The position numbers and the translations under genes are program-made. From Moniliella sp. 'wahieum' (taxonomy: Eukaryota), in NCBI GenBank assembly GCA_003971905.1, contig RSEE01000038.1, positions 558,001 to 622,000 on the forward strand: a stretch of 64,000 bases of DNA, written 5' to 3'. Positions 1 through 58,783 of this stretch are shown here, piece after piece. Position 1 is the stretch's first letter. The number at the start of each line of letters is the position of its first letter. The notes beneath the pieces are model-generated. The model made no database searches. It had not been told where the DNA came from and worked only from the letters and a program-made list of their open reading frames with translations.

Positions 1-828
1 ACGTCAACGTAGAACCAGGTGGCGCCGCCCTACGTCATGGGTGTTTCAACCTGTTTCAACTGGGAACATTAAATCTTGCAAGTTCCCCAAAGTAACAACT
101 AGCTTCCGTAGTAGCATCTCCACCGCTGCTGCTTCTCGAGAATGCCAAAAGGCCCATTCCCCCTACTCAGGCCTCAAGATTCAATCCTCTCGATCCCTTT
201 TATAACGCTGGTAATAGTGGGATCTAATTTCTGTATCGCAACACGGATATATGTCGACGCATGATTGAGATCCTCGATGTGGTGATCGGGCCAATGAGGG
301 CGACCTGCCGCATCATCATTCCTCAGCATTCTCCTCCTCGCAGGCCTGACCCTGCGACAGTCCCGTGAAGCTTGAGTAGTCCGACTGCATGCTGGGTGGC
401 AACAGGCTGAGACCATAGCTGCTGGCTTATTAGCTTTCCTCTTGAGCCGGCACACGTCGATCGTTCCACATTGCGCATCGCTGTGTGTGGTTTTGGAGCC
501 TTGCGTCAAAGATGCCGATGTCATCGATATCCACATCTGGGATCTGAGGGCCCCACCAGGCCACACCAGTCATCGACTGCGCCTCGCGCCCAGCCCCAGC
601 ACGGCCAGCACACCTTCACTGCGTCACACACCAACTGTTGTGTTGCTGTTCCACGGGCCCCCTCATCATAACCTCCAGCGTGGGCCCGTGCGCTTGGCAC
701 GCTGAGAGCAGCCAGTCTCCGCCCGGGCTAAAAGGAGAATGACGAACGTCCCCACGCTTCCGATTCCCATCTTTACCCCCCTTTCTTCTTTTTCCCACCA
801 ACCAAGTTCTGTCCCGCTTGCCATCACC

Positions 829-1422
829 ATGACCTCCCCCGGCCTCACATCGAACGACCAAGCGCTCGGCTTCCGCTCTTCCGACGTCCCCCACGCCCAG
901 GCCCAACACGCGACTGGCACCGTTGAACAACGTCGACCAAGGCCAATACTACCCCTGCCCCACATGCTGCTGCAACCTCCCAGCACCACTCTCATGGTCT
1001 GCACCATGACCCTCCCTTAATGTCGATGTGATTGATCGGGGTGGAAAGCCGGTTGGTGCAGGAAGCCGAGAAGGATGCCGCTTCGGCCGGCCTGGCCGGC
1101 AGCACAAGGATCATCAAGCCCTTGCACCCGGGCGAACCAGAAACTGGTACGTTCTCTTCTCCCGGCCTTTGCCAAGTATATACATGTCCATATGGGACGA
1201 CTTGTCGCTGACCTACACCCCCCGCGCTCGTAGTCGTCAACGATCCCAACATCCCTGACAGCGCCAAGGATGCACCGTGGTTTGGTGTTCCTCCGGTAGA
1301 GGGGGTGCCGTTCAAGGATCAAGTCAAGGCCAACGCGCTCTACTACCGCGGCAAGGTGTTTTGACACGGACAAAGTTCAGCAAGCTGCCGCCGAACTCCG
1401 GGGGGACATTAGTGCGGAGTAG
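829..1422 (+). CDS. Small hypothetical protein, 1 intron (1147-1233), frameshifted
   Basis: ATG 829 (MTSPGLTSNDQALG...). Intron GTACGT...GCTGAC...TAG. Spliced C-terminal part reads ...EPETVVNDPNIPDSAKDAPWFGVPPVEGVPFKDQVKANALYYRGKVF.DTDKVQQAAAELRGDISAE* (TAG 1420-1422). Confidence 0.5.
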
Positions 1423-2027
1423 CTAGGATCCGCTGCTCTACCAATTTCCTAAGCCGCTCGGATTCCTCAACCGATTTATTGGTACCTAGCTTGTTGACAT
1501 ATATGGATTGTTTGCCGCCCTCCACATGTCGCCCGCACCGGCCTTATTTTGCGTTGTGTTGTCATCCTCGGTTGAGTTGATCTCGGGCCTGGGCGCCGGA
1601 TCGCTTTCGATCGACTCTTCCCTGCAACCCCATTGTCATAGCATGAGATTCTAGATAGTGTATTACTCTTCACAGCACATGGAGGCAGGTGTGATCCATC
1701 TGGAACGCATCACTATAGGGCCGACGGCGCAGAATGGCGAGGAAAGAGGAGAGCGCCGGGGCATATATGTGGTGGTACAACAGCAAAAAGCTGAGGAAGG
1801 GCGGGGCGGACGGGGAGGGGGTACTATGGCTTGTAACTGCGATGTGTCCGTTGATACAAAGCTCCAATCCAAGATCCACAGAGACGAAGGTCTTGGTAGA
1901 GAGAAGGTGAACGCGGGGAGGAAAACGGAGCCAACTCGAAAAGGCATGATGCGGCGGTGGGGCTTATTTCATGATGTTTTTTTTCAAGACGGGTGAGGCC
2001 TGAGGCCACACCAAGAGAGTAGATTGC

Positions 2028-2825: not shown

Positions 2826-3183
2826 GTTGATGGTTGGATGCGGGTGGCACCCCTTGCGAGTGCTGTGATCACGGCACGCATTTAAACTGCTGGGCATATT
2901 AGGTAATGCATCGGGCCAGCCATGGCTCATTTCATTTTGTGTGACAAAACAGCAAGGACCCAGGCGCCAAGGGCTGGTAACCCGCAACCGCGCTTTGTTG
3001 TAGCGCCACCCCCACGATTGGCACACGCCGTCATGGACTGAACAGCCAGCTACGCGGGAAACTCCGTACGGGCACACTCCGCAACCACGCTACGATTCTT
3101 TCCTTTTGGGAGCTACGTGCACGCCCGTGACGACGACAAAGGGAATGAACTCGGACCAAAATAGTGTTCCTCAGTAAGGATAG

Positions 3184-4128: not shown

Positions 4129-5334
4129 CGGTCACCACGAAGCGTGATGCATGGTAGCAGCACGACTGCAGCCGAGGGCGGGGGGCGCAAACGCGGCACG
4201 GGGGCAGCCCCCGCACACACAACTGTACACTTCCGCTTCGATGTATATAATGGTAACGCTGGCTGGGGGAAGAAGAAAGACATGCCGCCTGAGGGAGAGC
4301 ACGGGGCCAGTCGCATTGAAAGCCAAAGGAAGCTCTCTCTTTGGCGTTTGCGGTATTCCATCCTCTAGAGCGACCCATTTTTCGTTGAAAGCGCGGGGGC
4401 CAAAACAATGACACTCATAAAAGGCCTATATGTGCATGAGACCACATCCATCCAACTTCTCGCCAACACAATTAATTTATCTGGTTGGGGGGAAGAAGAA
4501 ATGCAGTGGGGGGGTGGGCGGAGGCGAGACGTGTGCTCTACCAAGGGGTAGCACCAAGAGGTGCAGTTACGAGAATTGGAATAGATGCGGATCTCAGCCG
4601 AGGGACTCGGGTAGAAAGGAAGTAAACTTTTCGAGCTATGAGAGGTGCATCAGGGGGTACATGACGATCCCGCAAGACTGTGCGGCTCTGTAGCGGCAGA
4701 ACTAGCTGCATTGACTCTTGGAATGGCGCGAGAATGTCTCAAAGGCTACCAGGGACCCACTCAAAAGTCGTTCTTCTCTGAAGCCATGAAACCAGGGTTT
4801 AATTATATACTGTGCCACATACACTGTAACCTAGATCCTTCCTCCCCTGGTTGGAAGCTACTAGGTATCCTGAAGAATCTCATTAATCTCAGATCTCATT
4901 GGAGATAGTTCAACGTACTCAACGGTCAACGGCAACGCGTCAACGCGTCAACGTTCAACGTTGAGTGTTGAGTGTTGAAGAGTTCAACGCTCATCGCTCA
5001 CACATGTTTGCCACGCTCGATCACATCCACTCGTGGTACATCCAAAGAAGCGAATGGGGAAAGCGGTCAGATCTCAGAGGGTTCTGACCTGCTGGGAACA
5101 CTATTGACTTCATACATTGAGTGGGTGGGGCCCAGATGTCAACAAACACCCGCTGTGTGCGATACTGAAGGGTAACAAGTAGACTGTGGGGCACTATAAA
5201 ACGTGCTTCTTATGTCTCGGCTTGGGCATTATGTTTTGTGAATGTGCTATGGATACAGTTGTCTCATTAATAGTAGATTTACGTGTTATGCATGTTATGG
5301 TTCAACGTGTTCAACGTTCATTGCGTTAAGAATA

Positions 5335-5599: not shown

Positions 5600-6233
5600 T
5601 GCAGTGGGCGGCTGCGCCTGGTGGGACCTATACATTTCAGCTTTCCCAGGCGACGTGCCACATGGCGCACAGGTCCAACGCCAAGCTCACTTCTGTCCAG
5701 GTCACACGGTCACGTGCCATCTGGTCGAATGCTTGATGGGCGCAAACAAGGCGGCATGGTTCTGACAAGGGCAGCGGGCGTACCAGCTCACTGGCTGGCT
5801 GTCCTGCTCACCTCCCGTTCCCTGCCTCTGCGTCTGGAAGACCGGTCGTCCTGCACAATCTGAGGCAGCAAACCATGTATAGCTGGCACGGGGTGCGCCT
5901 CGTTCACACTTGAAGGCAGCTAATAAAGCACTACAATGCATAGGGGAGAGAGGGTGGTGCTGGTAAGCCGTTGAAGCAATGCGATGAGGATGAGAGGGGG
6001 GAATCAAGGTCCGGGTGAACCGACATGTTGTACACGCGTATCGAGATACATGGAAGTCGTTGAGACGAGCAAGGTAAAGGACAGAAGGAGAAGTCGATAA
6101 GGAGGCAAGCCGCGTAGTTTTGGAAGGGAGCCGGGTTGGTCACGGGTCACGGGTCACAGGTCACGGATCACGACCGGCTCCCCACTTGGAGTTGAACCAA
6201 GAGTAGAGTGAGTGGCAGGTTCAGAGTGGCCGT

Positions 6234-7480: not shown

Positions 7481-8922
7481 GGCGGAGGACAGGCAGCGTG
7501 CTGGGCAGAGAGGGGAGGGGGACGGAAGAAGAAGCCGAGGGGAAGGGGGGGGGGGTGCCTTATAAACGCACGGGGTTTTTCTGCGTGCTGGCCACGTGCG
7601 GAGTCGGCTTGGGTTTTTTTGCTGGTGCCGGTGCGTTGGCCAGGAGGGAGGGAGTGATGAATGACGCGTGATGGTGATGGCATGCCTCGCGCGCCTTGCG
7701 CTCCCAGATCCCACCGGCCCTTCCAGCCCAGCCGACCCGCACGCGTCCGACTGGCGTCGTGCCGTGCAGTGTTCACAGTGCCAGCTGCCAAGGTGTCGCC
7801 GGGATGCATGATGCATGATGCACGATGCATGATACGCGGTGGGATGTTCGTGCGGCGCCGTGCGACCCGTGGGCGGCACCAGAGCCGGCGCCATTCAACG
7901 CGAAATGGCGTGCTACGGCAGGACGGAGCAATAGGCTGGCGGCCGATGGCACCACAGCGCACGACGCGGCTATGGGTCATCGATCATCGATCATCGATCA
8001 TGCACATGCATCATGCGCCAGCGTCTTTGTGCGTGTTGGCAGCGCTTATCGGTATCGCCTCCATTATCGCCCCGGCCTGCTTGGCCCGCCTTGGCTGTCT
8101 CCGTCCGGGTCGGCCGAGGCGCCGCCACGCACGCCCGCCGGCGTTTGCCGCGTATCACGTACATGGCCAGGTACCGGTAGTTGAACCGTTGTCCTTTTGG
8201 CAGCGGAACGCCACACGGTGATCGCCATGTGATAGCCGCATGCGTGTGACACACATGTGACAGGAGACGACCCTTGGGCCTGGGAGTGGCAGGAGCTACT
8301 CCTGAGAGGAAGACGATGTAATAGGCCCCCGTCGGCAGCGCGAGAACGACGATGGGCATACACAGGCATAGGCGAGCACCACGTGTCCAGAGCTGCTCAA
8401 CACCGGATGTTTGGATGAGGAGGGCGTGATGCTTGGCGCAATGCCGACCGGATGCTCTTCCGCGCTCAGGCGCTGATATACTCTACTCACCAGCTCATCA
8501 ACCCCTCCTCTGGGCCGTCCTGGGGCAACCAATCGCCCCGCACCCGCCCACGCCCGCGCACACCCGGCGCTGTCGCGTGTCACATGTCATGCACCATGTG
8601 TCTTGTGGCACGGGGGCTGTCGCCCAGCTGGTCGCGGTGGAGCAGCCGCCGACACGCTCCCAACGGCAGGCCCACCAGACAGATCCAGCCCTACTCATCC
8701 AGCCCACCTGCCCAGCCGGCATTCCGACGACTGTCTGCTGGCCCACTGGGTTGCGCTGCATCGCCACCTCCTCTCCTCCGGCCACCTCCCGTCTTTCCCA
8801 CGGGCTCCTCCGCCTCTTCATCATCCGCCTCTCCCGGGTGGACGACGCCTCTCTCTGCTGTCCATATATATAGGGCTCTCTGTGGGCGCGCACATCTGCA
8901 TCTCTCCGCCACGACCCACGCC

Positions 8923-9671: not shown

Positions 9672-12471
9672 CCGTTGGACGTTTTGCCCCATTCCGTATT
9701 ATACCACCCTTATGGCTCGTGCTTATGGTCAAGGCCCATTTGGTCTTCTTCTTTAGGCCTAGTAAGAGTTTTTCAGCATATTTTCTCGCTGGGTTCTTGG
9801 TCACAACAGCAACCAAGCCTGGTGACATGTGTCCACTTTTTTCATGTCCCTCTGTATGTGTCGCTGGTTGACTTTGACCGTTTTCCACCACCTCATCCAC
9901 CACACCGTTGTGCGGTTTGCATCATCTTGGACGGCAATCATCAGTGCTTCTTTTCCAGGTTTCGTCGCCCCACCATTTCTTTTTGGCCTTTTTACATTCC
10001 ACCCGTATCGTCCTCTTCCTCCCTGATCTGTTGGTTTCTTGTACTTTTCACCCCCCTTTTTCCATCGCGCGGACGAGCAGTGGCGCAAACACCACAATAT
10101 AGTGTTTTGGTGATATAACTTATTGCCAGTCGCGTTGCGCCTCTCTGTGCGACTGATGGGGCGGGGTGGTGGCACCATATGGGTGTGCACACACATGGTT
10201 TCTATACCCCTCTCCTTCCTGGTATGTTTTGTTGTGTATCGTCTCCCGCAGAGAGATGGCGGGCTAGGAAGCATGGAAGTTCGCTTGCAAAGTGCTTGTT
10301 TTCATCCCAGCTCTCTATGGTGAGCCACTGGTATATACAGATGCCTTTCTGTTTGTTCGATTCTATTACGCCCTCGCTCGCCCCATTACAATATAGAAGA
10401 ACAGTCACGAAAAGAGCGGTGAGGACATGGGGGTGGGGTTCTCATATGTGGCGAAAGGGTTTGCCCAACACCGCCATGCACATCACTCACTGGCACAACC
10501 AGCCAACTATGTCGCTCACAGACCATGTTACCCTCGATATATGCAGGAAATTGTATCGCTGCCATCATGAATCCAAAGGGTATCCAGATCCGAGCAGACA
10601 CGGACTCGTCCCTCTTGCGACTTAGGACGATGCCTTGGCTGCCTGCAGAGGTACGAAGAGGGAGCCCTTCATGACTTCCTTCTTCTTCTCACCCGTGAGC
10701 GCCGCCCAGGCACCGTGGGAAGCGCCAGGATAGGATGCCCCACGGAACAAAATTCGTGCTGTGGGGTGAAAATGCGTATACGAGGCGGGAGAGAGAAAGG
10801 TGTGGGGTCGCCCCAGTTGGTCCAGGTGGGAACAGTTAATGTTGCGTCTGTTTCGTCGCCACCCCCGGTGCTTTTCCAATACATGGCACCCGTCGGGTGC
10901 CAGGGTAGCGAGCCGTGGGGGAGAGGATGAAGATGTAGTAGTAGTCAATTGATACAAAGGGGTACCGGTTGGTCATTTGGCTGGAACGGTTGTTGCGCTA
11001 TAGTAGACACAAAGGAGGAGAGGCGCAATTGGGGTGGTGGCAGGCTAAATAGATGCTTGGCCACTTTGGTCTACCAAGCGCATTTACTCATACTTGATGG
11101 CCACGTCAAGCTGAACAGGATGGGAGTGACGAACCCGGTTTTGTGATCGGAACGCAGCGACTTGGTCTCGGTCGCTTCTTCTCGCATTGCTTTCCTGTGC
11201 CACACGGAGAACAATCTGCAGAAACTTAAGGGGCCGAAACGGCTGCTCTGAAGGTGGAGGGCGAAACCGAGGTTGTGTCGGAGGAAAAGGAGTAGAAGAG
11301 GAGAGGCTCAAGCCGAGGCGGCAGTGCAAGAGGCGGGAAAGTCAGCTGACGACAAGGAGATTGTTGTCCAGGCTACGTTCTCGGAAATACAGGCAGTCCA
11401 GGATGAAACCAAGGAGGAGATAAGGCGGAGAAGGCGACCAAGGAGGCCAAAAGGAAGGACAAAGGCGCCAAACTGCCTTTTCCCAAGGGAGTGCGTCCTC
11501 TCTCCCACGTACCTTATACCGCTTACTTCCTCTTTGTTCCTCCCCCCTTGAAGTCAGGTGGACAGCTTGCTCGGCGACTCTTTGTGCATATATGCCTGCC
11601 ATTCCTGCCCGCACCGAGACGAGGCGACCGGGCCCGGGCTTCCGCAGTCGCACCATGACACGGCGGCAGGAAGCGAGAAGCGTAGTTGCGTCCGGCGAGG
11701 CATCTAACAAGGACGCCAAATACGAGACGGACATTGGCTCCCGCTTCCCTGCCGCACAGGGGACGAGCACAAGCTGTAGTGGGTGGTACCAGTCCAACTC
11801 ACTGCGCCCGCGTGGAGAGGTGCGCAAGGTGCGGCAGATGGGGACAGCCTCGTCGCATCTCGATCGATTGAGGCGTTCGACCTATCGCGTGCATTGGTCA
11901 AACAGCGAGCTGATCGAGCGGCAGAGCACCAATGTCGCCTGGCTTTACAAGATGCGGCACGAACAGCAGCCGACACACCAAGCGCATGCTCACCAAGCGC
12001 CAGACGCTCACTGCCTTGCCGGGTACACGGGCGCTGGAGCGCACCTTGCCGTTGCGCCAGCTATGCCTGGACGCGGCCACGGCGTAGACGGAGCGGCGCT
12101 TGCACCGCAACCCATGGAGGCCATGGCGGCCATGGCAGCCATGGAAGCCAACAGGCCGATGGACATAGGCGGATGGAGGGGCGCGCGCTGCGCACAGGGC
12201 AGTGTGGGCAGGCTGCAATGGCCGGGCATAGATCGCTGCCGGCGTCACGCATCACGCGTCACGCGTCACGCGTCATCGATCATCGGCCCCATCATGCATC
12301 ATCCATCCTGCCATCGGCCAGCTATCAGCGCTCAGCCGATAACCATCCTGGCGCAAGCCGCCCCCACCGCCTCCATCTTTCTCCAAGCCACCACCGCCAC
12401 CGCCACCACCATCACCGCCACCGCCGCCGCCACCACCACCTCACTTGCCCGTTCCTACACGGCCGCGCGCC

Positions 12472-15624: not shown

Positions 15625-17268
15625 GCATCCTTCTCGAGCCAATGCAATCTCATCTTCCGCTTCCAACGGCCCTCTCAACACACACTGAAATTGGTCGCGG
15701 TGGCGGTGGGAGAACGCCCCCACGGCAGATGTTGGAACAGGTACCGCAAGCAAATATCGAGGTCGCGAAGTAGAGATTGTACGCCTGCAGGAGTGTGGTG
15801 GTCCGGCCAAAACGCAAATTGAGTAGAACAGATTTCATTTGTAGTCCTCGCTCCGTATGCATGTTGGTGTCTACCGTGTTTCTGACTCGTGAACGCGTGA
15901 ACTACGGCTGAGCCGCTCAGACAGCGCTCAGCGCGCTCACCCATCAATGAGGTCGATGAAGCCATTGAGACCCTGAGGCTGCGGCGTGGTTGGAGGCGGG
16001 AGGCATCTAAAATTGCCACTTTGCACATTCCGAGTCCAGACAAGACCGGCATTTCTGCAATTTACGATGGTTTTCCTTTCCAATGGAGAAGGAAGTGTTG
16101 GGGGGCTAGACGCTAGTGGGGGGAGATAGATTGATAGACATTCCTATGGCATTTAGCGGATCTGAGATCTGAGACGTCGAGTTCTGAGTGTGGCGTCCAA
16201 CCTCTATCCCCCTCTCCAATCTCGCCATGCCACATGTCGCACGCAACCAAGTCACACGGATGTCATTTTGGACGCGGGGTAGCGAATTGAATCATTAATC
16301 AACGTTCAACACGTTCAACACGTTCATCACCCATCACATGTCGCAAGTGTCCCGGCGTGGTAAATCATGCTGCTGGTGCTGGGAACAGCATTTGCCAGCG
16401 CACCGATGCGCCATGCTGATTATACTTTGCGCAGTAAGTACTAAGTAAGGCAGCAATGCGCGCTGGAGCGGCTCTTCGGGCCGGAGGCCATCCGAGAAGA
16501 AGACCAAGCCCGGTAGCCATTGAAATGTGGTGGTATTGAGACGCCTCTGCGCTAAGGCAGTGTTGACCCTGGCATCCGTGGTACTCAGCCTCAGCGTACT
16601 CAGCCTCAGCGCCTCAGCGTTAAACTGAACAGACGGCGGAAGAATTGGGATTGGACGGTTGTGCTCGCTGCCGCTCGTGGCGCTGGTTGTCGTCGACCGT
16701 TGGCTTCAACCGCAGTGACGCGGTGACGGAGCCGCCGGGGGGTGGGAACTGAGGCTGACGCGCTGGCGCGCTGGCGCTTAGCCATGGAACGACGCGCGAG
16801 GCGTAGACAACCGGGTACTTTTTAAACTGGCCCCGTGCCATTCGAATGTCTGCCTAGGTCGCTCGCACAGTGGGGTCACTGGTCATGCATCATGCATCAG
16901 GCCTCAGGTGGCACCGCCCTTGTGGCAATCCCGAACTGAAACATCCCACTGTTTCTCGCTCCCACGCCCGGACACTGCCCTTCTGCTTCTTCTTCCCCAT
17001 GCTCGCGCGTGCGATCGATGATCGATGATGGACGATCGCCCCGGGGCGTGGTGCCCTCCGCAATGGCGGTTCAAGCTTCAAGCTTCAGGTTGAACATGTT
17101 GATCTTCTCGCTCAGCAACACCTTGTCACCCCCAACATCCACCCACAGTACACCACCATCACCATCCTCTTCTCCCTCCATTCCACTTCCACTACCCCGT
17201 CCACTCCTCCCTCCCACCCTCACTAGTCGTCCCTCCCGCCCCAATCCTGCCCGTCCCATCTCGTTACC

Positions 17269-39979: not shown

Positions 39980-40017
39980 TCACATGTCACATGTCACGCG
40001 TCACATGTCACACGTCA
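39980..40017. promoter_or_regulatory. Representative TCA-N4 heptamer array (one of >30 such intergenic motifs/arrays)
   Basis: TCA CATG TCA CATG TCA CGCG TCA CATG TCA CACG TCA. Regulatory function is inferred from position only. Confidence 0.5.
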
Positions 40018-42130: not shown

Positions 42131-43774
42131 GGCAGAGAGGCGGATGGGACTGTCAGGCTGTGAGACGCGAAGGGAGGCGGTGCGAATGGGAATGGAGAGG
42201 CGGTGGTGGTGGTGGTGGAGCAAAGCAGGAATACCAACGTTGAACGCTGCGCAGCAACGTTTTAACACCCCCTGGCCGCCGAGGGGTGGGCACGACGCCT
42301 GTGTGCTGTAGCGACTGCTTGTCTACGACTCATCGTACTCATCGATCACGCATGCACCCATCGATCATCGACCATCCGATGCATCCTAGCTGGTTCTGCC
42401 GCGAGGACCGGGGGAGCGGTGAACGGTGATTGATGCCAACGACTCGATGATGCCGGTGATGTGATGCATGGTGTATGCGGCCCGAGGCCCGATGCATGAT
42501 GTTCATGATGGGACAACGCCGCTGCACTGCTTTGGCTTCCATGCAGAAGCAGCGTTTTAGTGTGCTCCCTCTCCGCCGTGGCCATCGTCCTATCTGTAGG
42601 CCGCTGTGCCCCCTCGTCCCCGCCGGGCCAAGCTCGTTCCCTGTCAGCTGGCGCGACGCCGGACGCGTCCCCCGTCTTGGCGTTGGTCGCGCGGCCGGTG
42701 CTGCGCGAGATGCGAGTGTTGCCCAGCCGCTCCCCACGCACGCCGACCGCCAAGGCACGGTGCTGCCCAGCTGAGCGCGTGTGCGGTAGTGACGCCCTCC
42801 TGTCCAAGCGCCTGAAGTAACTGACGTTGAGCCCAGCGCTGAAGCTCCTGGGCACGACGACGGAATGCCGAGTGCGCCTGGTTGTGCTTTCGGAGACAGA
42901 ACAACGAGAGAGCGCCCGTCGGAGAAGCAAAGTCAGGAACGGCCCTCTGGCAGCTTGCTAGGCGACATGTGAGTGTGATGTTCGGCGTCACAGCTGTCAC
43001 TTGGTACGCGGTACGCCCCCACTCTGTCCCCACTTGAAGAGCTTGGCGTTTGAAATTTGACACGTGACTAGTGACTCCGCCTCGTCGCCTGCATTCCGCT
43101 CCACGTGTCCTCCTCTCCTTGGTGGCCACTGCAAATCGACAATCAATAATCAATCGATCTAAGATCCCCTCCATCATCTCAGATCGATCGCATCGATACT
43201 CGTCGTATCCAGTACTCACTAGTGCCATCAGATGAAGTGATGTCGTTTTTTTCTCCACGCGAGGACAGTGCGCCTTCAAGCTTCAAGCTCCACACCCCGC
43301 CACATCTGCACGGCGCCCTGTGGCATTTCTGCCTCATCTGCTGGTAGACAGGCATCGACGTAGTGCGCCCGACCGCGACATAAGCATCAGCAGTGGGCAA
43401 ACACAAGTCGACGACCACAGGCCTGCCTGCCCCCAACTTTTCCCCTCACAGGCCTCACCGACCTCATCATTGCTCTCAGAGAAACAGAACTGATAAGATA
43501 GCCGGCAGACGTATATGCGCACGGAAGATTTGATGCAAGGAGTGTGGAGCCCTCGAAATTTCGACGAACCACTGCCTTGAGCACAGATGACGTGCACACA
43601 GCAGCTAACAAAAATGAATATAGGATCCAATTGAACACTGAGGTGGTGACGGGCCAGGCGGATGGGAGAGACCTCCACGTCAGACCTCAGGTTAGACTGC
43701 CCAGGGACCAGGAACCATGCATAGAAAAGAGGAGATGAAGAAAAGAAGGTCAAGGGAAAGACCCAGTCGCACGC

Positions 43775-45045: not shown

Positions 45046-46452
45046 ATGTCAGCTGTCAGTGGTGACGGCAACCAACCTCCCCTGCGCCCCCGCCCCCCTG
45101 TCCCCGGCCCGCCATGTGGGGAGCTCCCCACCCCGCCCCGCCCCCGCGCCTCTCCCGCCCTCCTCCGGCGCCCCCCCCACAGCGCCGACACCTCGCCTGC
45201 CGACCGAAGCGCCACGTATCTGCCGGGCTATCTCAGCAAGATCAAGGATGTCCGCCCTTACTCGTCCCCCATCCACGGCACTCCCGCGTCCCGCTCGGCC
45301 TCGGACGTGAGAGACGATATCGGCCACGAAGGTGGCTCTCTCTTTGCGCTGCGGCCGCCGTCTGCGATACCCAGTCACCCCGCCCAGAACACGTTCAACT
45401 CCCCGCTTTTCCAACCGCGCACCTCGGGACGATTCAACGACTCATTCACCAGCAACCCGGCCAACAGCTCCTTCCTCGGCAACGTCTCCCTGGGAGGCAC
45501 TTCACGTGGATCCCTCTCTCCTCTTCCGCGGGGCGGGAGAACGCATTTGGACCGTCGGGCTTACGCGCGCGCCCGAGCGCTGGCCACGGACCCAACCCGC
45601 CCCCGCACAGCCCCAACATCAGCCTCAGTGCCCGCAGAGGAACCGTTGTCTCCTCGCCAGGGAACGAGGACGATGCCCCGCCTCCCATCCAGACCCTGGG
45701 GGACGAGGATGCGTTGGACATCTCGGGTGCCCTACCCCCGCCCCTGCTCGGACCCTCGTATCAGCCCCAACGTCGGTTCTGGGCAGGGCCTCTGCATCTA
45801 CCAGCTCCTCCCTCATGCCCCCCGGACAGGGCGGCGCGGATGATGCCAAGTTACGCACAGTGTACCTCTATGGCTTCCCGCGCTCCCTGGAAGTGGTCGT
45901 CGTGGAACACTTTGGCCTGGGTCTGCTCTCGTCCGAATGGGTGCCCTTTTCCCAGTCGGACGAAGGACCGGGGTGTGTAGAGGTGGTGTACAAGGACTCG
46001 ATCTCTGCCTTACGCGCTTCCGGCGCGCGGGCGAAATCGTTGCGGGCGCCTGCATGGTCGGGGTACGCGTGAAAGACGAAACCCTGCATCATACCCTCCG
46101 CCTCGATGGGCTGAGCGGTTCGTTGGCCTCGGAATCGCCTCGGCCGTCCCTCGCTTCGCCCGCTGTGGTCCCTTCTCCTGCACCCAGCACGCCCCAGCGG
46201 CCCCAAGCCCGTCCGCCGCGCGCCTCAGCCGGCCGGCCGCTCAGCGTGATGGGCACCAAGGACTCGGCCTTGGCCCCGGCGGATACATCAGCCTCTTTCT
46301 TCCGCATTCCTGGATGGTCCACCCCCACCGCTCCTACTGCCACCGACGTACCGGCAGATTCGCGCCGCGCTTCCTTCTTAAGCAAGGGGGGGACACGGTT
46401 TTCGGTTGGTAATCGAGGTAATCGCTGCGGATGCATGGATGCTGGTGCATGA
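45046..46452 (+). CDS. NUP53: Nucleoporin Nup53/Nup35-like protein (RRM-like domain), frameshifted
   Basis: YLPGYL near the N-terminus, DDAPPP motif, TVYLYGFP...VVEHFG...VEVVYKDSISALRA...GEIVAGACMVGV. Confidence 0.65.
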
Positions 46453-46895
46453 TGCATGACTCCCCTCTGTTTGTGTCTGGCGCCATTATATCATGCCTAC
46501 CCATCCGACCCAGCACGTCCACAGCGACGCAGCCGATGCTGGCAGCCAGGTAGCCGCCGGACGTAACCGATTCCAACCCGAACGAACACCGGCCCGTTGC
46601 ACAGCCGGGAGAGGTCGAGGAGCGAGTACCGAGTACCACTGGCGCAACTGCATTCAAACTTTCATCGGACGTCCCTTTGGCTTGATCAGCTTGATCTGAG
46701 ATCTGATCCATCTGAGATTCCAGTCTGACATCTGAGAGATCTGAGATCTGATTTCTGATTTCCGTCCATCTTTTGAGCTTTGGCCTGACGCTCAGCAGGC
46801 TTCATCGAGTTCGTCACTTGGTCTTTGATGGCGCGAGCAGTTCGCCAGCTTTTACCACCTTCTTCCTCCCCACCGTGTCTTCTTCCTTTGCCGCC

Positions 46896-51902: not shown

Positions 51903-52955
51903 GGGGGGCAGGAGGGGGGAGGTGGTGGGGTGGGGTGCGGAGGGGAGGGCGTGGAGGGAGAGGAGATCGCCAGAAAGAGAGAGCGGTAATACTAATCAGC
52001 CTGCTACTGTGCCGGTCTGTGGTGTGGGCCCCTGGGGCGGGGGGAGTCATTGGGAGTGAGCTGATTTTGGGAGTGACTGCCCCCGTGCGGCGGATGGATC
52101 GCGTCTGCGACATATAATGGACTGCTGCAAGGATGCCGAGAGCCGCTTGCTCTTCCGCTCCTCCGCTCTTCCGCCCTCCCCGCGCTTGCTGCCAGAGCCA
52201 CCGATCGGCTGCGGCTGGCAGTTGCCAGTGTCGATCGCCGGCTTCTGAACCCCAGGTTGCACGTTTGACGTTTTCTACCATCGTCCATCGTCCATCGTCC
52301 ATCGACCCGAGCTGTGTATGGCGTAGCCTGGCTTTGATTACCAAAGAAAAAAGGGCGCGGTGGGGCTGTTGCGGGAATGGCTGGGTGGACAGGCTCCTGA
52401 ACGAAGTTGTGACAATTAATACAGGAGCCTCAGCGCTCGCTGAGCTCAGCCTGAGCTCGGCAAGGTGCGAGGCAGGCTCCAAGGGCGGCGTGGGGTGGGA
52501 GAGGGATATTTGAACGATGCATTGAGTTGGTTCGCTTTCCCCAGCATGCTCAGCGTCGAGGCGCAGCGCTCGTTCAGCCGCAACGTTTAGCCCCAGCGCT
52601 CAGCCTGAGCGCTGAGGCTCAGCGAGGCGAGGGGGGCGACGGGATGGCAGTTTTCGCATGATGCATGACGTTTTTGACGAAAATGCGGAGGAAGAGCGAA
52701 TTGGTCTGTGCTCCGCACTGGCGCTGCGCATCGGTGCACATATACGCCCATCGCAAAATGAAACGAAATGCAGTGGAGCTGTTTTAGCAGCGCTGGCCGG
52801 GTGCCGTTTCCAACGTTTACACGCTGGCCGCTGTAGCGCTCATCGCGAGCAGACCGTCGCCTCCATCTCCATCAGCCGTGCTGTGCCCCCGCCCGCCGCC
52901 CTCGCTGGCCCTCGCTCCTTGCTTCGTTTCTGCCCCCTCGCCACCACCACTCCCC

Positions 52956-54266: not shown

Positions 54267-57200
54267 TTTCTTCCTAGCCCGTCTCTCTCTCTCTTGTGCA
54301 TGCGCCATTGTGCCGTCACCTGCAACCATACGCATCGGGCAACATGCCACCGCCCCCCTTTTCCCGGACACTCTCCGTGCCCCTCTTCAATCTCCAATCT
54401 TCAACCCTTTGTTGGTCGTTTTACGTTGATCCCAACACGGGGTCGGGGATCGGAAGCCTCTTCATCGATCATTCGTCATCCCTGTTGATCCATAAGCCAT
54501 AAGCCTCGCACGTTACTTGTTTTCTCTTCTTGTTTGTTTTGGGTTCCCCCTAGTGTCTACCTGCTGTGACGCCCGACCTGGCCTGACCGACTGGCCTTGC
54601 TTCGAGCCCTTGGCAGGGCCAGCGCGTGCCGATCATAAATGCATGGCCAGAACACGCGCAGAGGCCAACAGGGGCGCAGGGGGTATGAGCAATGATTAGT
54701 GATTAATGAGCACAGAGATAGAACACTGCATACGAGAGTTAGGGCCACCATGCAACCTACGGCAATGAGCAATCATTAATCATTGCTCAGGATGGAACCG
54801 CTAGGCCAACACGTGCCTGGGTGAATATGGAATACGCCTACGAAGGATCGTGCATGGTCTCTTTGGTCGCCGGCGTTTCGCCTTCGGCGCGAGCGTTGGC
54901 CGGGGTTCCCTCCATGTCCTATGTTTGAATTGAGCGAAAGAAGGACTCAACGGTGCACCTTCCTCACACGTCACGGTGCGGCCGACATGTTTGTTTTCGT
55001 TTTCTGTTTTCACTTTCTGGGTTTGTTGATGTCTGGGTGTACTAGCGCGCGCGTACTCCTCTATCCATCGCAGCCAGTGCCCTCCTCTTGATGCATGGTC
55101 AGAAGCAACGGAGGCAGCTCCACGATCAAGTAGATGTGCAGAAGTTCATGTCATGCAGCATGTCATGTCATGATGACATGCAATGACATGTTTATGTGTC
55201 ATGGCTGCCATCGAACGAATACGAATGAGTTATTGAAGTACTAAGTCCTGAGATCTGAGACTCAGTACTTGCCATTATCTTCAACTTTCAGCACCCTCTC
55301 ACGGGCGATTCAGAGTTTCCTTTGCGCAGGCCAGATGGGCGTCTGACCAGCACGACGAACTCGCCCTGGACCTTATCGCTATCCTGCACTAGGTAGGCCA
55401 GAGCGTTGGTCCTATGTATTAACCTTTTCTGAGATCTGACAGTTCTGACGCCGGCAAGCTATGTCTCAGCAAACAAGACGTGTGAAAGAGGAATGCAGTA
55501 TGATTGTATGAACGATGTGAGTTGAGAGAGTCGGCCGACTGGTGTACCAGCCAATGCATGGGATGGGGCAGGGGGAAGCTCAAGTTCAAAAAGCGCTTGC
55601 AGTGCGGCGACAACGCATGCGTGGTGCCGCACTCGCTAGTTGAGAGCTTGGCACTTGGCTTCCCTGTCAGTTTGATGAGAGCGAAATGCGATGTAAGATG
55701 GGCGGCAGAAGAAAAAGTGTCTTGGTGGGTCTGTGTTCACTAAGTAATATCCAAAACACGTATCAGTAACCTGGACCCGCCAAAGTCATTTTGAATGGTT
55801 TTGGACGGCGCGGAATATACACTGCCCGAGAAGGGAAGCACGTACGGTTTGGTTGCAGGGGGGCAGAAAATGCCAAAGGTGCAGATTGAAGCGAGAGCGG
55901 ATGGGGACAATGGCCATCTTGCGTCGTGCCACAATCGCTCACGGCGCACGCAACGGCGAGCGGCCCGACAAGCGACGGCCCGGACGCAGGATCGTCGGCG
56001 TCACGTTCTTCGGCGCGCCCCCCGTCGGCGAGCGCACCGTCTTGCTTGGCGAGGGGGCAGCGTGAGGGAGGCGCAGCGCAGCGCGCGAGCCGAGGTTGCG
56101 GACGAGGGTGGTGGGCAGCATGGTGGGATGAGAGGCAAAAGAGGCGGGAAGGGCGTGGACGACAGCATGGCGGGATGGCCGGTGGGGGCGGGTTTATATC
56201 TGCTGGTGGGCAGCTAGCTGGGTGGCTGCTGTGAGACGCAGTACTCAAGCCAACAATCAAGCGAATCTGCCAGTCGCGTTGCTGATGATCGATGATTGAT
56301 GAGATCTGAGATATGGGGGGAGCGGCGCAGGGGGTCTGTGCGCTCGCGGTGCGGGGTGGTGACGTCAGTGGCGACACCCAGCACACCGCCCTGCTGCGCC
56401 CTGCTGCGATGGGAGATGGGAGATGGGGTCTCTAGCCCAGTGCGGCGCTGACTATCCAGGCCACCCATTCTCGGCTACCCTGCCCCCGCCACCTGTTCCC
56501 ACCGCCGCCCGCCCACCCCAGCCATGCTGGTGGACACACTGCCCATGCGCTTCCCCCCCCCCGCACTTTGGTCCACATTGGGCGGTGTCGCTCAGCGCCA
56601 GTGTCGCAACTGTGTGGTCGCCACACTTGAAGTGCCCCAGCGGTGGTCCCAGCGGTGGCCCTTGCTCTCTTCTGGATGTTCTTTGTGGCCATCCGCGTTC
56701 TGTTTGGTGTTGGAGCGTTTGCTCCCATTGGCCATTGAATTCTTCTCACGGTAGTCCTGTCAGCCGTCCCCCCCAGACGAGGACCGCACTCGCCGCCACC
56801 GCTCTTCTACGGTCATACCGTCATCGCGTCATCCGTCATCCAGCCGACGGGGCCAAGCTGGTGCCAAGCTGACGCTTACTGCCGAAGCGTCCGTGGGAAT
56901 ACGAAAGAAATGGAATCATCAGCCGGATAATGTACCCGCAACCAACGGAAGATGGGCGGACGCAGGAGCGTCGATGTCAACGAGAGGAGATGCACACTCA
57001 GACTGATTACGAGCAACTAAGAAGCTGGAAGCCATAAAGCTTGAAATCGCAATCCCTTCCACTTGGCACGTGGCGTGGCCGAGGGGACTGACTCGATGGA
57101 GAGTCGCAGATTCATATCAAAATGTTGGCAAGGCCGCCTCAATGAGCATCTCGCTCCAACTCTCCAAAACCCACACATGTTATAACGACGGGGGGTTCCT

Positions 57201-58783
57201 TGGCTGTGATACATTTTTCTTGGAACCCCGGTCTCCGTGAATCCGCCTCTCCACACCTCTCCTGGAAGCTTGAGTCAAATGTAAACTTTTGACGCAGGCC
57301 ATGAGACAGGGGAGTCTCCACCTTTCGAGAAAGACCGGTTGATACAAGTGACTTATCCGACAGAGTCACAAAATTCATGAAGAGTGTGGCCAAGCGCCAA
57401 AGGGAGATGTGTTTTGGTGTATGTGAGGCTTTAAGCTTCAAGCTCCCCTATCTGAGAACAAAAAGGGTACGTTTCGACCGTGCAGAGTGTTAGCGCTTAG
57501 CGAAGCTTGGAACTGAGGGCCTGAGACCTGGTGATCAGGTCCCTCTCTCTGGCTTGCTCGGCACCCCACATACTTGGGATCAAAAAGCTATATCGATCAC
57601 TATATGTGCGGCAGAGGGAGAGCAGAGCCGCGCCGGACCAGGGGTGGCCGGTGGGTAATCTTAATCAGTAGGCAAATATATACGTCAGCCGAGTAGACAA
57701 ACGTCCTGTGCAGCCTTGGTGTGCGGATCTGTGCTGCATCTGGTGTCACCATGTCATCATGTCACATGTCACTGCCAATCGACAATCTAAACGCGTCCGT
57801 GTCAGCATCCCCAACACATTGACTGGGTGTTATGCATGTTATGCACGAGGAAAAGAGGTACAGCCCTTTTGATGGCCAGCCTGGGCCGAACTCTGAGAGA
57901 CAACAAGGGAGCGAGCGTGCAATGCCGAGGGACTGCTTTTGTTTTGCACAGATAGGGTAGCGTTATTCAACGTTTATGTGAGCAGAAAGGGATGAGTTCT
58001 AGAGTGCTGATGGCGCTGATGGTCCCTCGAGGGCGATGCGATCTCGCACTAGGGGTGGCGTGGACTAAGCCAGCCAGCAATGCCTGTGCAGAGGAACATC
58101 AAGCAGCCAGCCGGCCAGGGGCTATAGGCTGCGGAACAAGGAAACCAAAAGCGAGAAAACAAAGGAACTCCTAGGCCGCAGGAGGCACTTAAGGGACGTC
58201 GGCCAAAACACACGAGCCACCCGCGGTGGCTCCCCTGAAGCTTGAAGGGTGTTTCCCCTCGTTTTGTTCCGCCCGTTCCCATCCCCCTTGGCGCCCTTGG
58301 CCTGCTCTCTCCGACCGTTCAAAATTCAAAGGTGTGGCGTGGGGTGCCTGCGCTGAGACCGACCTACACTGGCGTGCGAAGGCGATAGGCTGGCGTAAAG
58401 AGGGCAAGTTCTACAGAGAGAAGGAAAGAGAGAGAGAGGTGATGGATCTATTCCAAGAGAGGTGCCTGTTCGGGTAAGAACATGGGAGAGAGTTGGATAG
58501 AACAGCGCGATGTGTGATGTGTGATGCGTGTGCATGATGCATGATGTATGATCATGGCGCTGACCGCTGGGCTGCTCGCAGCTTGTTCGGTGTATCGCCA
58601 ACGTCAAGCCTTCTCGAATTCTGTCCTGCACGTCCGAAGTACTCCGCCGGAGTCCGCCATGCCGAATGCTTAGCTCAGCGGGGTGGAGCGACTGCCTTGT
58701 GTGTGCTGCGTCGTCTGCTCGGCCACGGGGCGCGGCAGCCGGCCTCGGCGCACCGCTTCCGCCTCCAGACCAGCACCGACAGC

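What the first reader, a model, noticed from the sequence alone, without database searches (positions are those of the whole stretch)
167..58551. Window-wide 7-bp-periodic TCA-(4-bp palindrome)-TCA pattern in promoter/intergenic DNA
Seen: TCA (or TGA) recurs every 7 bp with a mostly palindromic 4-bp spacer, and at least 14 of the 16 possible palindromes occur: GGCC 167, GATC 4889, ACGT 4948, TCGA 7977, CATG 8580, CGCG ~12252, TTAA 16292, TGCA 16883, AGCT 17071, CCGG 19259, GTAC 21717, CTAG 24585, AATT 43051, GCGC 52606. Single arrays mix spacers while holding phase: TGA AATT TGA CACG TGA CTAG TGA (43051); TGA GTAC TGA AGCT TCA AGCT TCA AGCT TCA (21717); TCA TGCA TCA TGCA TCA GGCC TCA (16883); TGA TCGA TGA TTGA TGA GATC TGA (56286). 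Slippage of one unit cannot easily produce that. Arrays sit ~150-800 bp upstream of the starts of SAM2, the YABBY-like gene, myotubularin, the RlpA gene, cyclin, the GH23 gene, profilin, the C2H2 gene, RIB5 and AVT2, and I did not notice them inside conserved CDS. Inference: sites for a general regulatory or nucleosome-positioning factor that binds TCA half-sites cooperatively, or the footprint of an unusual mutational/modification process. I recall TCACGA-type heptamer arrays in Ustilago maydis intergenic DNA but cannot verify that, and I know no description of this palindromic-spacer form.
Basis: partly seen in the sequence, partly recalled or inferred. Interest (0 to 1): 0.85.

Follow-up and report, generated by a model that had tools for sequence, protein, structure and literature searches.

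The report
TCA-plus-palindrome seven-base repeats between fungal genes
The DNA between genes of this basidiomycete fungus is peppered with short seven-base repeats, each made of a fixed TCA (or TGA) followed by any four-base palindrome. The pattern is real, was not found in the literature searched, and looks more like the scar of an unusual DNA insertion process than like a protein-binding site.

Summary
On both strands there are 130 TCA-N4-TCA pairs, against 25.0 ± 4.9 in order-3 Markov sequences. Of these, 66 have a palindromic spacer, against 1.7 ± 1.2, and 14 of the 16 possible palindromes occur. No other trinucleotide pair behaves this way. In a control of 122 metagenome loci with TCA heptamer arrays, 36 of 1472 spacers (2.4%) are palindromic.

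The anatomy can be refined:
- The unit is a 6-bp palindrome A-N1N2N2'N1'-T plus one C or G.
- The middle base of the triplet is copied. On the + strand, palindromic spacers lie in 44 TCA..TCA and 22 TGA..TGA pairs, but only 3 mixed pairs.
- Arrays tend to start or end exactly at the triplet.
- The commonest isolated form is a 12-mer, [TSAab][b'a'][TSAab].
- Single units are barely enriched.
- Predicted hairpins are weak.
- None of the 66 palindromic elements lies in Pfam-supported ORFs.
- I saw no orientation rule relative to genes.

My best reading (about 0.4) is a lineage-specific insertion or duplication process anchored at TNA, amplified by slippage and tolerated only in non-coding DNA. 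Regulatory arrays remain a live rival.

No genome, reads or relatives' DNA could be obtained, and the assembly carries single-base indel errors.

The parts
166..183 (+). TCA GGCC TCA AGAT TCA, a short in-phase chain
1994..2007 (-). TGAGGCC x2 (TCA on the - strand)
4886..5000 (.). Composite cluster: GATC unit, TCAACGG x2, 8-bp-period CAACGCGT, TCAACGT x2 switching in phase to TGAGTGT x2, then TCAACGC/TCATCGC. It is the only stretch with a strong predicted ssDNA fold.
   Evidence: (4905-5003: -24.1 kcal/mol, z -4.2)
5067..5078 (+). Isolated 12-mer [TCAGA]TC[TCAGA]
5309..5320 (-). Isolated 12-mer [TGAAC]GT[TGAAC] as read on the - strand
6138..6172 (+). GGTCACG x5. The spacer CGGG is one mismatch from a palindrome. 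It lies 75-105 nt beyond the SAM synthetase stop codon.
7655..7671 (-). TGA-phase chain including the spacer CGCG
7803..7833 (-). GATGCAT x4.4 (TGA + TGCA)
7977..8016 (+). TCATCGA x3.6 followed by TGCA units, in the promoter region between the SAM synthetase gene (-) and the next gene (+)
8578..8589 (-). Isolated 12-mer [TGACA]TG[TGACA] as read on the - strand
12245..12336 (+). TCACGCA, TCACGCG x3, TCATCGA, TCATCGG, then TCATGCATCA and the 12-mer [TCAGC]GC[TCAGC]. It lies just upstream of a candidate ATG at about 12299 of the myotubularin-type gene.
16159..16174 (-). GATCTGA x2.3
16290..16330 (+). TCA TTAA TCA ACGT TCA, then the 9-bp-period ACGTTCAAC x3.2
16876..16908 (+). Mixed array TCA CTGG TCA TGCA TCA TGCA TCA GGCC TCA GG
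17013..17029 (-). GATCGAT x2.4 (TGA + TCGA)
17070..17087 (+). TTCAAGC x2.6 (TCA + AGCT)
17524..17538 (-). CTAGTGA x2.1
19256..19282 (+). ACGGTCA x4, including TCA CCGG TCA
21715..21748 (.). TGA GTAC TGA AGCT TCA AGCT TCA AGCT TCA. This is one of only 3 in-phase TGA/TCA switches.
21872..21887 (+). TTCAAGC x2.3
22381..22392 (+). Isolated 12-mer [TCAGG]CC[TCAGG]
24583..24601 (+). TCA CTAG TCA CACG TCA
24696..24713 (+). CATGCAT x2.6 (TCA + TGCA)
31379..31401 (+). GCGTCAC x3.3, between the profilin 5' end and the PAT1 3' end
39560..39579 (+). TCAAGCT x2.9
39640..39657 (+). TCAAGCT x2.6
39799..39810 (-). Isolated 12-mer [TGATT]AA[TGATT] as read on the - strand
39978..40019 (+). Mixed array with spacers CATG, CATG, CGCG, CATG, CACG
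42339..42371 (+). TCATCGATCA (a bare 10-mer) and CATCGAT x1.9
43049..43076 (-). TGA AATT TGA CACG TGA CTAG TGA
43274..43289 (+). CTTCAAG x2.3
46446..46459 (-). TGCATGA x2
46693..46762 (-). GATCTGA arrays upstream of the riboflavin synthase gene
52594..52668 (-). CAGCGCT / CTGAGCG units and TCATGCATCATGC
54462..54472 (+). TCATCGATCAT
54686..54789 (.). TGATTAATGA and AATCATTAATCATT, forming a 19-nt inverted pair 66 nt apart
   Evidence: I18
55248..55260 (-). CTGAGATCTGAGA
55428..55439 (-). Isolated 12-mer [TCAGA]TC[TCAGA] as read on the - strand
56284..56312 (-). TGA TCGA TGA TTGA TGA GATC TGA GAT
57758..57772 (+). CATGTCA x2.1
58236..58247 (+). Isolated 12-mer [TGAAG]CT[TGAAG], as printed in + orientation (TCA on the - strand)
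58509..58556 (-). GATGTGT x2.6 and TGATGCA x5.3, upstream of the amino-acid transporter gene
26898..26909 (-). CCTCC GG CCTCC. This is a 7-nt insertion relative to the paralogous copy at about 4092-4108, which has a single CCTCC. It is the only filled-versus-empty comparison available.

Best explanation
The arrays are scars of a lineage-specific insertion or duplication process, not binding sites.

Proposed sequence of events:
1. An event at a T-N-A triplet (overwhelmingly TCA/TGA) copies the triplet.
2. The two copies are joined through a 4-nt junction that is its own reverse complement. Often the first half of the junction repeats the two bases after the triplet. The elementary product is then the 12-mer [TSAab][b'a'][TSAab], a net insertion of 7 nt.
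3. A junction of this kind is what a hairpin-capped or fold-back DNA end, or a short template switch, would leave.
4. Once two units exist, replication slippage and repeated events add units in phase. Independent events at neighbouring triplets give mixed arrays. Point mutation then erodes them.
5. Every event adds 7 nt, so selection removes the products from coding sequence. They accumulate in intergenic and promoter DNA.

Shown here: the duplicated triplet, the palindromic junction, the 12-mer form and its phase, the exclusion from coding ORFs, and the lack of enrichment of single units.

Inferred: the break or hairpin chemistry, the enzyme responsible, and neutrality.
For: (1) The triplet is duplicated rather than merely recognised. 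On the + strand, palindromic spacers lie between TCA..TCA 44 times and TGA..TGA 22 times, but between TCA..TGA only 2 times and TGA..TCA once. TAA..TAA and TTA..TTA pairs give 4 palindromic spacers of 14, against 6% by chance (p = 0.008).

(2) Isolated elements are not 14-nt tandem duplications. Of 29 single palindromic TCA-N4-TCA elements, the exact period-7 run is most often 12 nt (10 cases). Among 17 12-nt runs of the TSA+palindrome class, 13 sit in 2 of the 7 possible phases, both equivalent to [TSAab][b'a'][TSAab] (p = 6e-5).

(3) Array ends coincide with the triplet. Of 76 runs of at least 10 nt, 36 begin exactly with TSA on one strand or the other.

(4) Single TSA+palindrome units outside arrays are barely enriched (242 against about 211). 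The same holds for A....T hexamer palindromes (207 against about 172). The signal therefore lies in the duplication.

(5) Period 7 is generally favoured in this DNA. There are 212 runs with at least 5 matches, against about 59 in simulations, while periods 8, 10 and 11 are near chance.

(6) Two paralogous segments that are 96.6-98% identical differ by one 7-nt indel of the form CCTCC-GG-CCTCC against a single CCTCC. That is a 5-nt direct repeat plus 2 nt.

(7) Period-8 and period-9 variants keep TSA plus a palindrome and add 1-2 extra bases, which resembles junction variability.

(8) Spacer choice is broad: 14 palindromes across 55 loci. It weakly tracks the background frequency of TSA+dinucleotide (rho = 0.39, p = 0.14).

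(9) I saw no orientation rule relative to genes (hand tally). None of the 66 elements lies in Pfam ORFs.
Against: - No enzyme, mobile element or break mechanism is identified. No TIR element or MITE occurs in the window.
- The palindromic junction is specific to TSA units. Among non-TSA heptamer arrays, 8 of 34 contain a 4-bp palindrome, against a chance value of 0.375. The CCTCC-GG-CCTCC indel may therefore be palindromic by chance. It is a single case, close to the end of the homology.
- Longer arrays do not obey the 7n+5 length rule. Many run from TSA to TSA (7n+3). A 3-nt duplication plus a 4-nt junction therefore fits some arrays better than 5+2.
- Several different arrays cluster in the same promoters, for example 10 elements in 16163-17537 and 9 in 39560-40010. 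This is equally expected of selected regulatory elements.
- The correlation of spacer use with background is not significant.
- Everything rests on one 64-kb window of an assembly with single-base indel errors. No relatives or reads were available.
Confidence: 0.4

Rival explanations
1. The arrays are selected cis-elements of promoters. A factor, or an oligomer with dyad axes every 3.5 bp, reads TCA every 7 bp. Alternatively, the arrays keep promoters free of nucleosomes or supply initiator-like TCA start sites.
For: Arrays lie in non-coding DNA next to gene starts, for example 230-620 bp upstream of the SAM synthetase gene. They also lie just upstream of candidate starts of the myotubularin-type, riboflavin synthase and transporter genes.

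Several independent arrays with different spacers cluster in the same intergenic regions. Mixed arrays hold phase, and 5 of 21 differing neighbours are also palindromic.
Against: - A reader of TCA does not explain why spacers must be palindromic with 14 different sequences.
- The central base is the same in both copies (66 same against 3 mixed).
- There is no orientation rule relative to genes (hand tally).
- Some arrays lie beyond stop codons (6138-6172).
- Single units are barely enriched.
- A spacing of 7 bp puts successive sites on different faces of the helix (established DNA geometry).
- No paper describing such a motif was found.
Confidence: 0.25
2. These are ordinary microsatellite dynamics with a structural filter. 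Heptamers arise by chance duplication. Those whose unit is nearly self-complementary (6 of 7 positions) form slipped hairpins with a 5-bp stem and a TCA triloop, so they expand and persist more than others.
For: Two adjacent units can pair as a 5-bp stem with a 3-nt TCA loop. ViennaRNA finds exactly this in the AGCT and TGCA arrays. Period-7 repeats of all kinds are in excess. Imperfect units next to perfect ones look like microsatellite decay.
Against: - Predicted ssDNA folds of arrays are weak (-2.6 to -9 kcal/mol). Seven of the eight TSA-type stretches are no better than dinucleotide shuffles (z from -0.80 to +1.23), one is only modestly better (21712-21751, z -2.13) and only the composite 4905-5003 is strongly better (z -4.24).
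- Mixed arrays are not self-complementary across units, yet each unit stays palindromic.
- The filter does not explain why the odd base and its neighbours must be T-S-A. Of 24 arrays whose unit is a hexamer palindrome plus one base, 23 are A....T plus C or G.
- It does not explain why the commonest isolated form is a 12-nt run in a fixed phase rather than a 14-nt duplication.
Confidence: 0.15
3. These are excision footprints of a cut-and-paste DNA transposon family that targets TNA. The triplet is the target-site duplication. The palindromic 4 nt are either two bases left from each inverted terminal repeat, as in the Tc1 footprint TA-CA-TG-TA, or hairpin-derived P nucleotides.
For: A directly duplicated triplet flanks an obligatorily palindromic junction. 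In-phase addition of units with different junctions is natural under repeated insertion and excision. Many DNA transposons prefer promoter DNA; that point, and the Tc1 and Sleeping Beauty footprints, are recalled knowledge and come from no call.
Against: - No TIR element, MITE or transposase domain occurs in the 64 kb. The only dispersed repeat is the duplicated RNase MRP RNA gene.
- Fourteen different junctions would need many families with different terminal dinucleotides.
- The junction half often equals the adjacent flank: the right extension is at least 2 nt in 17 of 29 cases, against 6% by chance. Terminal-repeat remnants would not show this.
- A density of 42 clusters in 64 kb far exceeds any footprint density I know of (recalled).
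Confidence: 0.1
4. The arrays are an assembly or base-calling artefact of an unpolished long-read assembly.
For: The SAM synthetase coding sequence carries three single-base deletions in short homopolymers (near 6965, 6287 and 7300). The consensus therefore has indel errors.
Against: The errors seen are single-base homopolymer deletions. They cannot create ordered 7-bp units with palindromic spacers. The arrays avoid coding sequence (0 of 66 in Pfam ORFs), which an artefact would not do. They also comprise 55 loci with 14 different spacers.
Confidence: 0.03

Closest known systems
Heptanucleotide long simple-sequence repeats of prokaryotes (cyanobacterial STRR and similar). Known to me from recall and from earlier notes of this scan; the original papers were not read here.
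   Same: The unit is 7 nt, the arrays are short head-to-tail runs of about 2-6 copies, and they lie in intergenic, often promoter-proximal DNA. In both cases the preference for period 7 over 6 or 8 is unexplained.
   Different: The host here is a fungus. There is not one unit, or a few, but an open family (TSA plus any 4-bp palindrome). In a control of 122 metagenome loci with TCA-phase heptamer arrays, 36 of 1472 spacers (2.4%) were palindromic, and no locus had 3 or more of 5 palindromic spacers.
Excision footprints of cut-and-paste transposons: the Tc1 TA-CA-TG-TA footprint, the Sleeping Beauty TAC(A/T)GTA footprint, and hairpin-derived P nucleotides of hAT, Transib and RAG (all recalled knowledge).
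   Same: A short direct duplication flanks a junction that is palindromic by construction. The 12-mer [w5][reverse complement of the last 2 nt of w][w5] has the form of a target-site duplication plus 2 P nucleotides.
   Different: No element is present in the window. The target is TCA/TGA, which I know for no superfamily. The junctions are of 14 kinds, the density is far higher, and units are multiplied up to 5-6 times in phase.
Short template-switch or quasi-palindrome mutations (recalled: Ripley's model; Loytynoja and Goldman 2017).
   Same: A few bases are copied in reverse complement from the adjacent sequence, which creates a local palindrome in one event.
   Different: Those events make or perfect inverted repeats. 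Here the flanking triplets stay direct repeats: perfect 10-bp palindromes (TCA-pal-TGA) occur only 3 times, against 66 direct. The event is also tied to one trinucleotide.
Ultra-short or palindromic repeat elements of fungal and algal mitochondria. Passages of PMC7218506 were read, including its mention of the 11-bp MUSE1 element of Podospora.
   Same: These are very short repeats containing palindromes, found in non-coding DNA, present or absent between close relatives, and suspected of being mobile.
   Different: They are mitochondrial, AT-rich (A)n-spacer-(T)n palindromes or fixed 11-mers. They are not nuclear TSA-anchored heptamers with variable palindromes.

Membership tests
Heptanucleotide simple-sequence repeats (LSSR / STRR type) | Head-to-tail copies of a 7-nt unit, in excess over chance | tested here: met
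   TRF lists many period-7 rows. There are 57 exact runs of at least 14 bp, against 8 for period 8. Runs with at least 5 matches number 212, against about 59 simulated.
Heptanucleotide simple-sequence repeats (LSSR / STRR type) | One or a few conserved unit sequences per genome | tested here: not met
   There are 14 different palindromic spacers at 55 loci, plus 34 non-TSA arrays.
Heptanucleotide simple-sequence repeats (LSSR / STRR type) | Prokaryotic host | tested here: not met
   The genes have introns and basidiomycete best hits.
Heptanucleotide simple-sequence repeats (LSSR / STRR type) | Copy number varies between strains (slippage) | not testable with these tools
   No genome is held, no reads were listed, and no relatives' DNA could be obtained.
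Transposon excision footprints | Direct duplication of the target flanking a short junction | tested here: met
   Palindromic-spacer pairs with the same central base number 66, against 3 mixed. Array ends coincide with the triplet.
Transposon excision footprints | The cognate element (TIRs, transposase) is present with the same target duplication | tested here: not met
   None was found in this window. The rest of the genome could not be searched.
Transposon excision footprints | Empty and filled sites between relatives or paralogues | tested here: inconclusive
   There is one 7-nt indel between paralogous segments (CCTCC-GG-CCTCC against CCTCC), and it is not at a TSA site.
Transcription-factor binding-site arrays | The single site is enriched on its own, with positional or orientation bias to genes | tested here: not met
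   Single units number 242 against about 211 expected. I saw no orientation rule (hand tally). The intergenic location itself is met.
Transcription-factor binding-site arrays | Conservation in orthologous promoters; a binding protein | not testable with these tools
   No related DNA is held, and no binding data exist.
Hairpin- or cruciform-forming inverted repeats | Predicted fold clearly more stable than shuffled sequence | tested here: not met
   Of the eight TSA-type stretches folded, six have z between -0.80 and +1.23. One (21712-21751) has z -2.13. Only the composite 4905-5003 is strong, with z -4.24.

The most novel reading that the evidence does not exclude
This basidiomycete lineage has, or recently had, an endogenous, sequence-directed insertional mutagenesis that has not been described. 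Breaks at T-C/G-A triplets in open intergenic chromatin would be repaired through a hairpin or fold-back intermediate, each time adding exactly 7 bp (the triplet plus a self-complementary 4-mer). Equivalently, there may be a 7-bp 'ultra-short mobile element' with no sequence of its own. The arrays would then be a genome-wide record of where this nuclease or repair pathway acts.
Probability: 0.3. Interest if true: 0.85.

Novelty: new variant of a known kind. Interest (0 to 1): 0.7.

Why it matters
If the arrays are scars, they are a clean, countable signature of a DNA break-and-repair or micro-insertion process that no model fungus shows. They mark its target (TNA), its product (plus 7 bp with a palindromic junction) and its preferred chromatin. 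The responsible enzyme could then be found by comparative genomics.

If they are instead selected, they would be a promoter grammar with a symmetry rule (any palindrome will do) that known DNA-binding proteins do not explain.

There are practical consequences too. The arrays load promoters with 6-bp restriction-type palindromes and with hypervariable 7-bp repeats, which would make good strain markers. They also show that heptanucleotide repeats, long noted and unexplained in bacteria, have a eukaryotic counterpart with an extra rule.

Tried and rejected
- Whole genome: none is held for this window.
- Sequencing runs: none was listed for window 16000-25000, and no RNA holder was listed. No read-level check or expression check was therefore possible.
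- Earlier notes of this scan: there are none for this genome, and no look-alike stretch for an array-rich region. Word searches returned only bacterial heptamer-repeat notes. A look-up with the SAM synthetase exon returned only unrelated bacterial and phage notes.
The closest proteins (87-90% identity to the DGAT2 exon, P0121 and P0123) are unnamed, and their contigs could not be fetched.
- Transposon search: inverted-repeat and self-BLAST searches found no MITE or TIR element. The one repeated 'inverted-repeat element' turned out to be two copies of the RNase MRP RNA gene.
- Generalising the rule: I thought that 3-mer + palindrome might hold for all heptamer arrays. It does not. Non-TSA arrays contain a 4-bp palindrome in 8 of 34 cases, at or below the chance value of 0.375.
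- Hairpin model: ssDNA folding gave weak structures.
- Self-trained codon-usage gene finding was unreliable. Part of the reason is that the assembly has frameshifting indel errors. Location statements therefore rest on Pfam-supported ORFs only.
- Spacer use against background frequency: rho = 0.39, p = 0.14, not significant.
- Literature: eight full-text searches found no description of this pattern and no support for the Ustilago maydis recollection. Only open-access papers and bioRxiv were searched, and only search listings were seen, except for passages of PMC7218506. No supplements were opened.

Full report
WHAT THE WINDOW IS. The 64 kb is 59% G+C nuclear DNA of a basidiomycete fungus.
- Pfam-supported ORFs include SAM synthetase, a myotubularin-type phosphatase, a cyclin, ribosomal protein L1/L10a, the NADH dehydrogenase 51-kDa subunit, profilin, PAT1, a C2H2 protein, riboflavin synthase, a PLP enzyme, an amino-acid transporter and DGAT2.
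- The best named relatives of the SAM synthetase exon are Agaricomycetes, Malassezia and Meira, at 75-80% identity.
- For DGAT2 the best named relatives are Tilletiaria, Rhodotorula and smuts, at 66-70%. Two unnamed proteins reach 87-90%.
- No whole genome is held, and no sequencing run was listed.
- The assembly is of draft quality. The SAM synthetase coding sequence is interrupted by three single-base deletions in short homopolymers. Exact copy numbers of repeats should therefore be read with some caution.

- TCA pairs on the + strand peak at lag 7: 85, against 22 at lag 6 and 21 at lag 8. There are echoes at lag 14 (40) and lag 21 (36).
- On both strands there are 130 TCA-N4-TCA pairs, against 25.0 ± 4.9 in 100 order-3 Markov sequences. 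Sixty-six have a palindromic spacer, against 1.7 ± 1.2. Fourteen of the 16 palindromes are used.
- Of all trinucleotide pairs at this spacing, only TCA/TCA (44 of 85 palindromic) and TGA/TGA (22 of 45) stand out. The background share of palindromic 4-mers is 6%.
- Period 7 is special: there are 57 exact runs of at least 14 bp, against 8 for period 8 and 9 for period 9. Runs with at least 5 matches number 212, against about 59 simulated, while periods 8, 10 and 11 are near chance.
- As an outside control I scanned metagenome contigs for (TCA N4)x5 TCA. Only 36 of 1472 TCA-N4-TCA spacers (2.4%) were palindromic, 10 of 610 in the matched arrays, and no locus had 3 or more of 5. Palindromic spacers are therefore not a general property of TCA-containing heptamer repeats.

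WHERE THE ELEMENTS LIE. The 66 palindromic elements form 42 clusters. None lies in Pfam-supported ORFs, which cover 19.1% of the window (p = 1.4e-4).
- They gather in about 18 intergenic stretches, for example 10 elements in 16163-17537 and 9 in 39560-40010.
- For the SAM synthetase gene, the arrays lie about 230-620 bp upstream of the start region. One array lies 75-105 nt beyond the stop codon.
- A hand tally of arrays against the direction of the nearest Pfam-supported gene gave about 9 with TCA on the sense strand and 11 on the antisense strand. I take this as no orientation rule.
- My attempts at self-trained gene finding were unreliable. I therefore make no firm claim about introns, or about 5' against 3' regions.

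REFINED ANATOMY.
(i) The unit. TCA plus a 4-bp palindrome is the same thing as a 6-bp palindrome A-N1N2N2'N1'-T followed by one C (G on the other strand). Of 24 exact arrays whose unit is a hexamer palindrome plus one base, 23 are of the A....T + C/G kind. In mixed arrays it is this hexamer frame that stays palindromic, not the 7-mer centred on C.
(ii) The middle base is copied. On the + strand, palindromic spacers lie between TCA..TCA 44 times and TGA..TGA 22 times, but between TCA..TGA or TGA..TCA only 3 times. Perfect 10-bp palindromes are thus not enriched. TAA..TAA and TTA..TTA pairs show a weak version of the same effect: 4 palindromic of 14 (p = 0.008).
(iii) Isolated elements are not plain tandem duplications of 7 nt.
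  - Of the 68 single-spacer chains, 29 are palindromic. Their exact period-7 run is most often 12 nt.
  - Of the 17 12-nt runs of this class, 13 sit in two of the seven phases. Both phases are equivalent to [T-S-A-a-b][b'-a'][T-S-A-a-b], a 5-nt direct repeat joined by the reverse complement of its last two bases (p = 6e-5).
(iv) Array ends. Longer arrays tend to begin at the T or end at the A of the triplet: 36 of 76 runs begin with TSA on one strand or the other. Their other end is variable, and many run from TSA to TSA. A description as '3-nt duplication plus 4-nt palindromic junction' fits some arrays better than '5 + 2'.
(v) Period-8 and period-9 relatives keep TSA plus a palindrome and add one or two bases.
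(vi) The palindrome rule is specific to TSA units. Non-TSA heptamer arrays contain a 4-bp palindrome in 8 of 34 cases, at or below the chance value of 0.375.
(vii) Single units are barely enriched outside arrays: 242 TSA+palindrome against about 211, and 207 A....T hexamer palindromes against about 172.
(viii) Spacer use is broad. Counted by locus: GATC 8, AGCT 8, TGCA 7, TCGA 6, GGCC 4, CGCG 4, TTAA 4, then others. It follows the background frequency of TSA+dinucleotide only weakly (rho = 0.39, p = 0.14).

STRUCTURE. Two adjacent units can pair as a 5-bp stem with a TCA triloop, and the folding program finds this. The energies are small, however (-2.6 to -9 kcal/mol). For seven of the eight TSA-type stretches they are no better than those of dinucleotide shuffles, and for one (21712-21751, z -2.13) only modestly better. 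Only the composite at 4905-5003, where TCA units abut TGA units, folds strongly (-24.1 kcal/mol, z -4.24).

ONE NATURAL EXPERIMENT. The window holds two inverted, 96.6-98% identical copies of a segment that carries the RNase MRP RNA gene. Among their few differences is a 7-nt indel. One copy reads CCTCC and the other reads CCTCC-GG-CCTCC, a 5-nt direct repeat plus 2 nt that happen to be complementary to its end. This shows that 7-nt insertions of the '5 + 2' type do occur here. It is a single case, not at a TSA site, and near the end of the homology. Given point (vi), its palindromy may be chance.

INTERPRETATION. The signal lies in a duplicated triplet joined through a self-complementary junction. 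The single unit is not favoured on its own. Orientation is free, coding DNA is avoided, and period-7 repeats of all kinds are in excess. I therefore read the arrays as scars of a lineage-specific insertion or duplication process anchored at TNA (mostly TCA/TGA).
- The junction looks like what a hairpin-capped or fold-back end, or a very short template switch, would leave.
- Slippage and repeated events then add units in phase, and mutation erodes them.
- The chemistry and the enzyme are inferred, not shown. I put this reading at about 0.4.

RIVALS.
- Selected promoter elements (0.25). These explain the clustering in promoters. They do not explain the palindrome rule, the copied central base or the lack of orientation.
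- Hairpin-assisted slippage alone (0.15). This is weakened by the weak folds, the TSA specificity and the 12-mer form.
- Transposon excision footprints (0.1). These have the right formal shape, but no element is present in the window, there are too many junction types, and the junction correlates with the flank.
- Artefact (0.03). This is unlikely, because the errors seen are single-base deletions and the arrays avoid coding DNA.

COMPARISON WITH WHAT IS KNOWN.
- The nearest described kind is the heptanucleotide simple-sequence repeat of bacteria (cyanobacterial STRR and similar). I know this from recall and from earlier notes of this scan, and did not read the papers. It shares the 7-nt unit and the intergenic habit, but not the host, the open family of units or the palindrome rule.
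- Transposon footprints and P nucleotides (recalled) share the formal structure.
- Mitochondrial palindromic and ultra-short repeats (passages of PMC7218506) share only the general idea.
Only an open-access library was searched, and mostly only search listings were seen.

VERDICT. This is a real, strongly non-random and, as far as I could find, undescribed sequence pattern. Its origin is unresolved because no related DNA, reads or whole genome were available. I file it as a new variant of short tandem repeats, with a fair chance that it records a new mutational mechanism.

Noticed in passing
window 3321-3924 (-) and 27084-27686 (+): There are two copies of the RNase MRP RNA gene (Rfam RF00030, 57.8 and 58.5 bits). 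They lie in inverted orientation inside 945-bp segments that are 96.6% identical (3183-4127 and 26877-27825). A second duplicated piece of 271 bp (5334-5600 and 25380-25649) lies about 1.2 kb away in both copies. The DNA between the two pieces differs: ribosomal protein L1/L10a gene in one copy, array-rich non-coding DNA in the other.
   Followed up: partly
window about 6965, about 6287 and about 7300 (- strand gene): The SAM synthetase coding sequence needs three single-base corrections in short homopolymers (CCCC, CC, GG) to stay in frame with its relatives. The cause is either consensus indel errors of an unpolished long-read assembly or, less likely, a very young pseudogene. ORF-based gene finding in this window is unreliable for this reason.
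   Followed up: partly
window 35179-35259 (-) and 48101-48196 (-): A tRNA-Val (anticodon TAC) was found by ARAGORN and Rfam. A second, 96-nt tRNA match was found by Rfam only and may contain an intron.
   Followed up: no
window 5405-5476 and 25506-25576: A 26-bp tandem repeat built of CCACCGTAG-like 9-mers (about 2.8 copies) is present in both copies of the 271-bp duplicated piece.
   Followed up: no
window 39146-39172, 52278-52304, 54171-54266: These are longer heptamer arrays without TCA or a palindrome: CAGCCAG x3.9, CCATCGT x3.9 and GCACACC x13.9. They show that period-7 repeats in general are favoured in this DNA.
   Followed up: partly
window 4933-4953, 16302-16326, 25119-25134, 39551-39566: These are period-8 and period-9 relatives of the arrays. 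TCA (or TCA plus one base) is still followed by a 4-bp palindrome, but one or two extra bases are present per unit.
   Followed up: partly
window 11424-13217 (+): This is a 598-codon open frame whose first 270 codons have no family match. The TCA arrays at 12245-12285 lie inside it, just before a candidate ATG at about 12299 that would start the myotubularin-type protein. The upstream part may be open by chance in G+C-rich DNA.
   Followed up: partly
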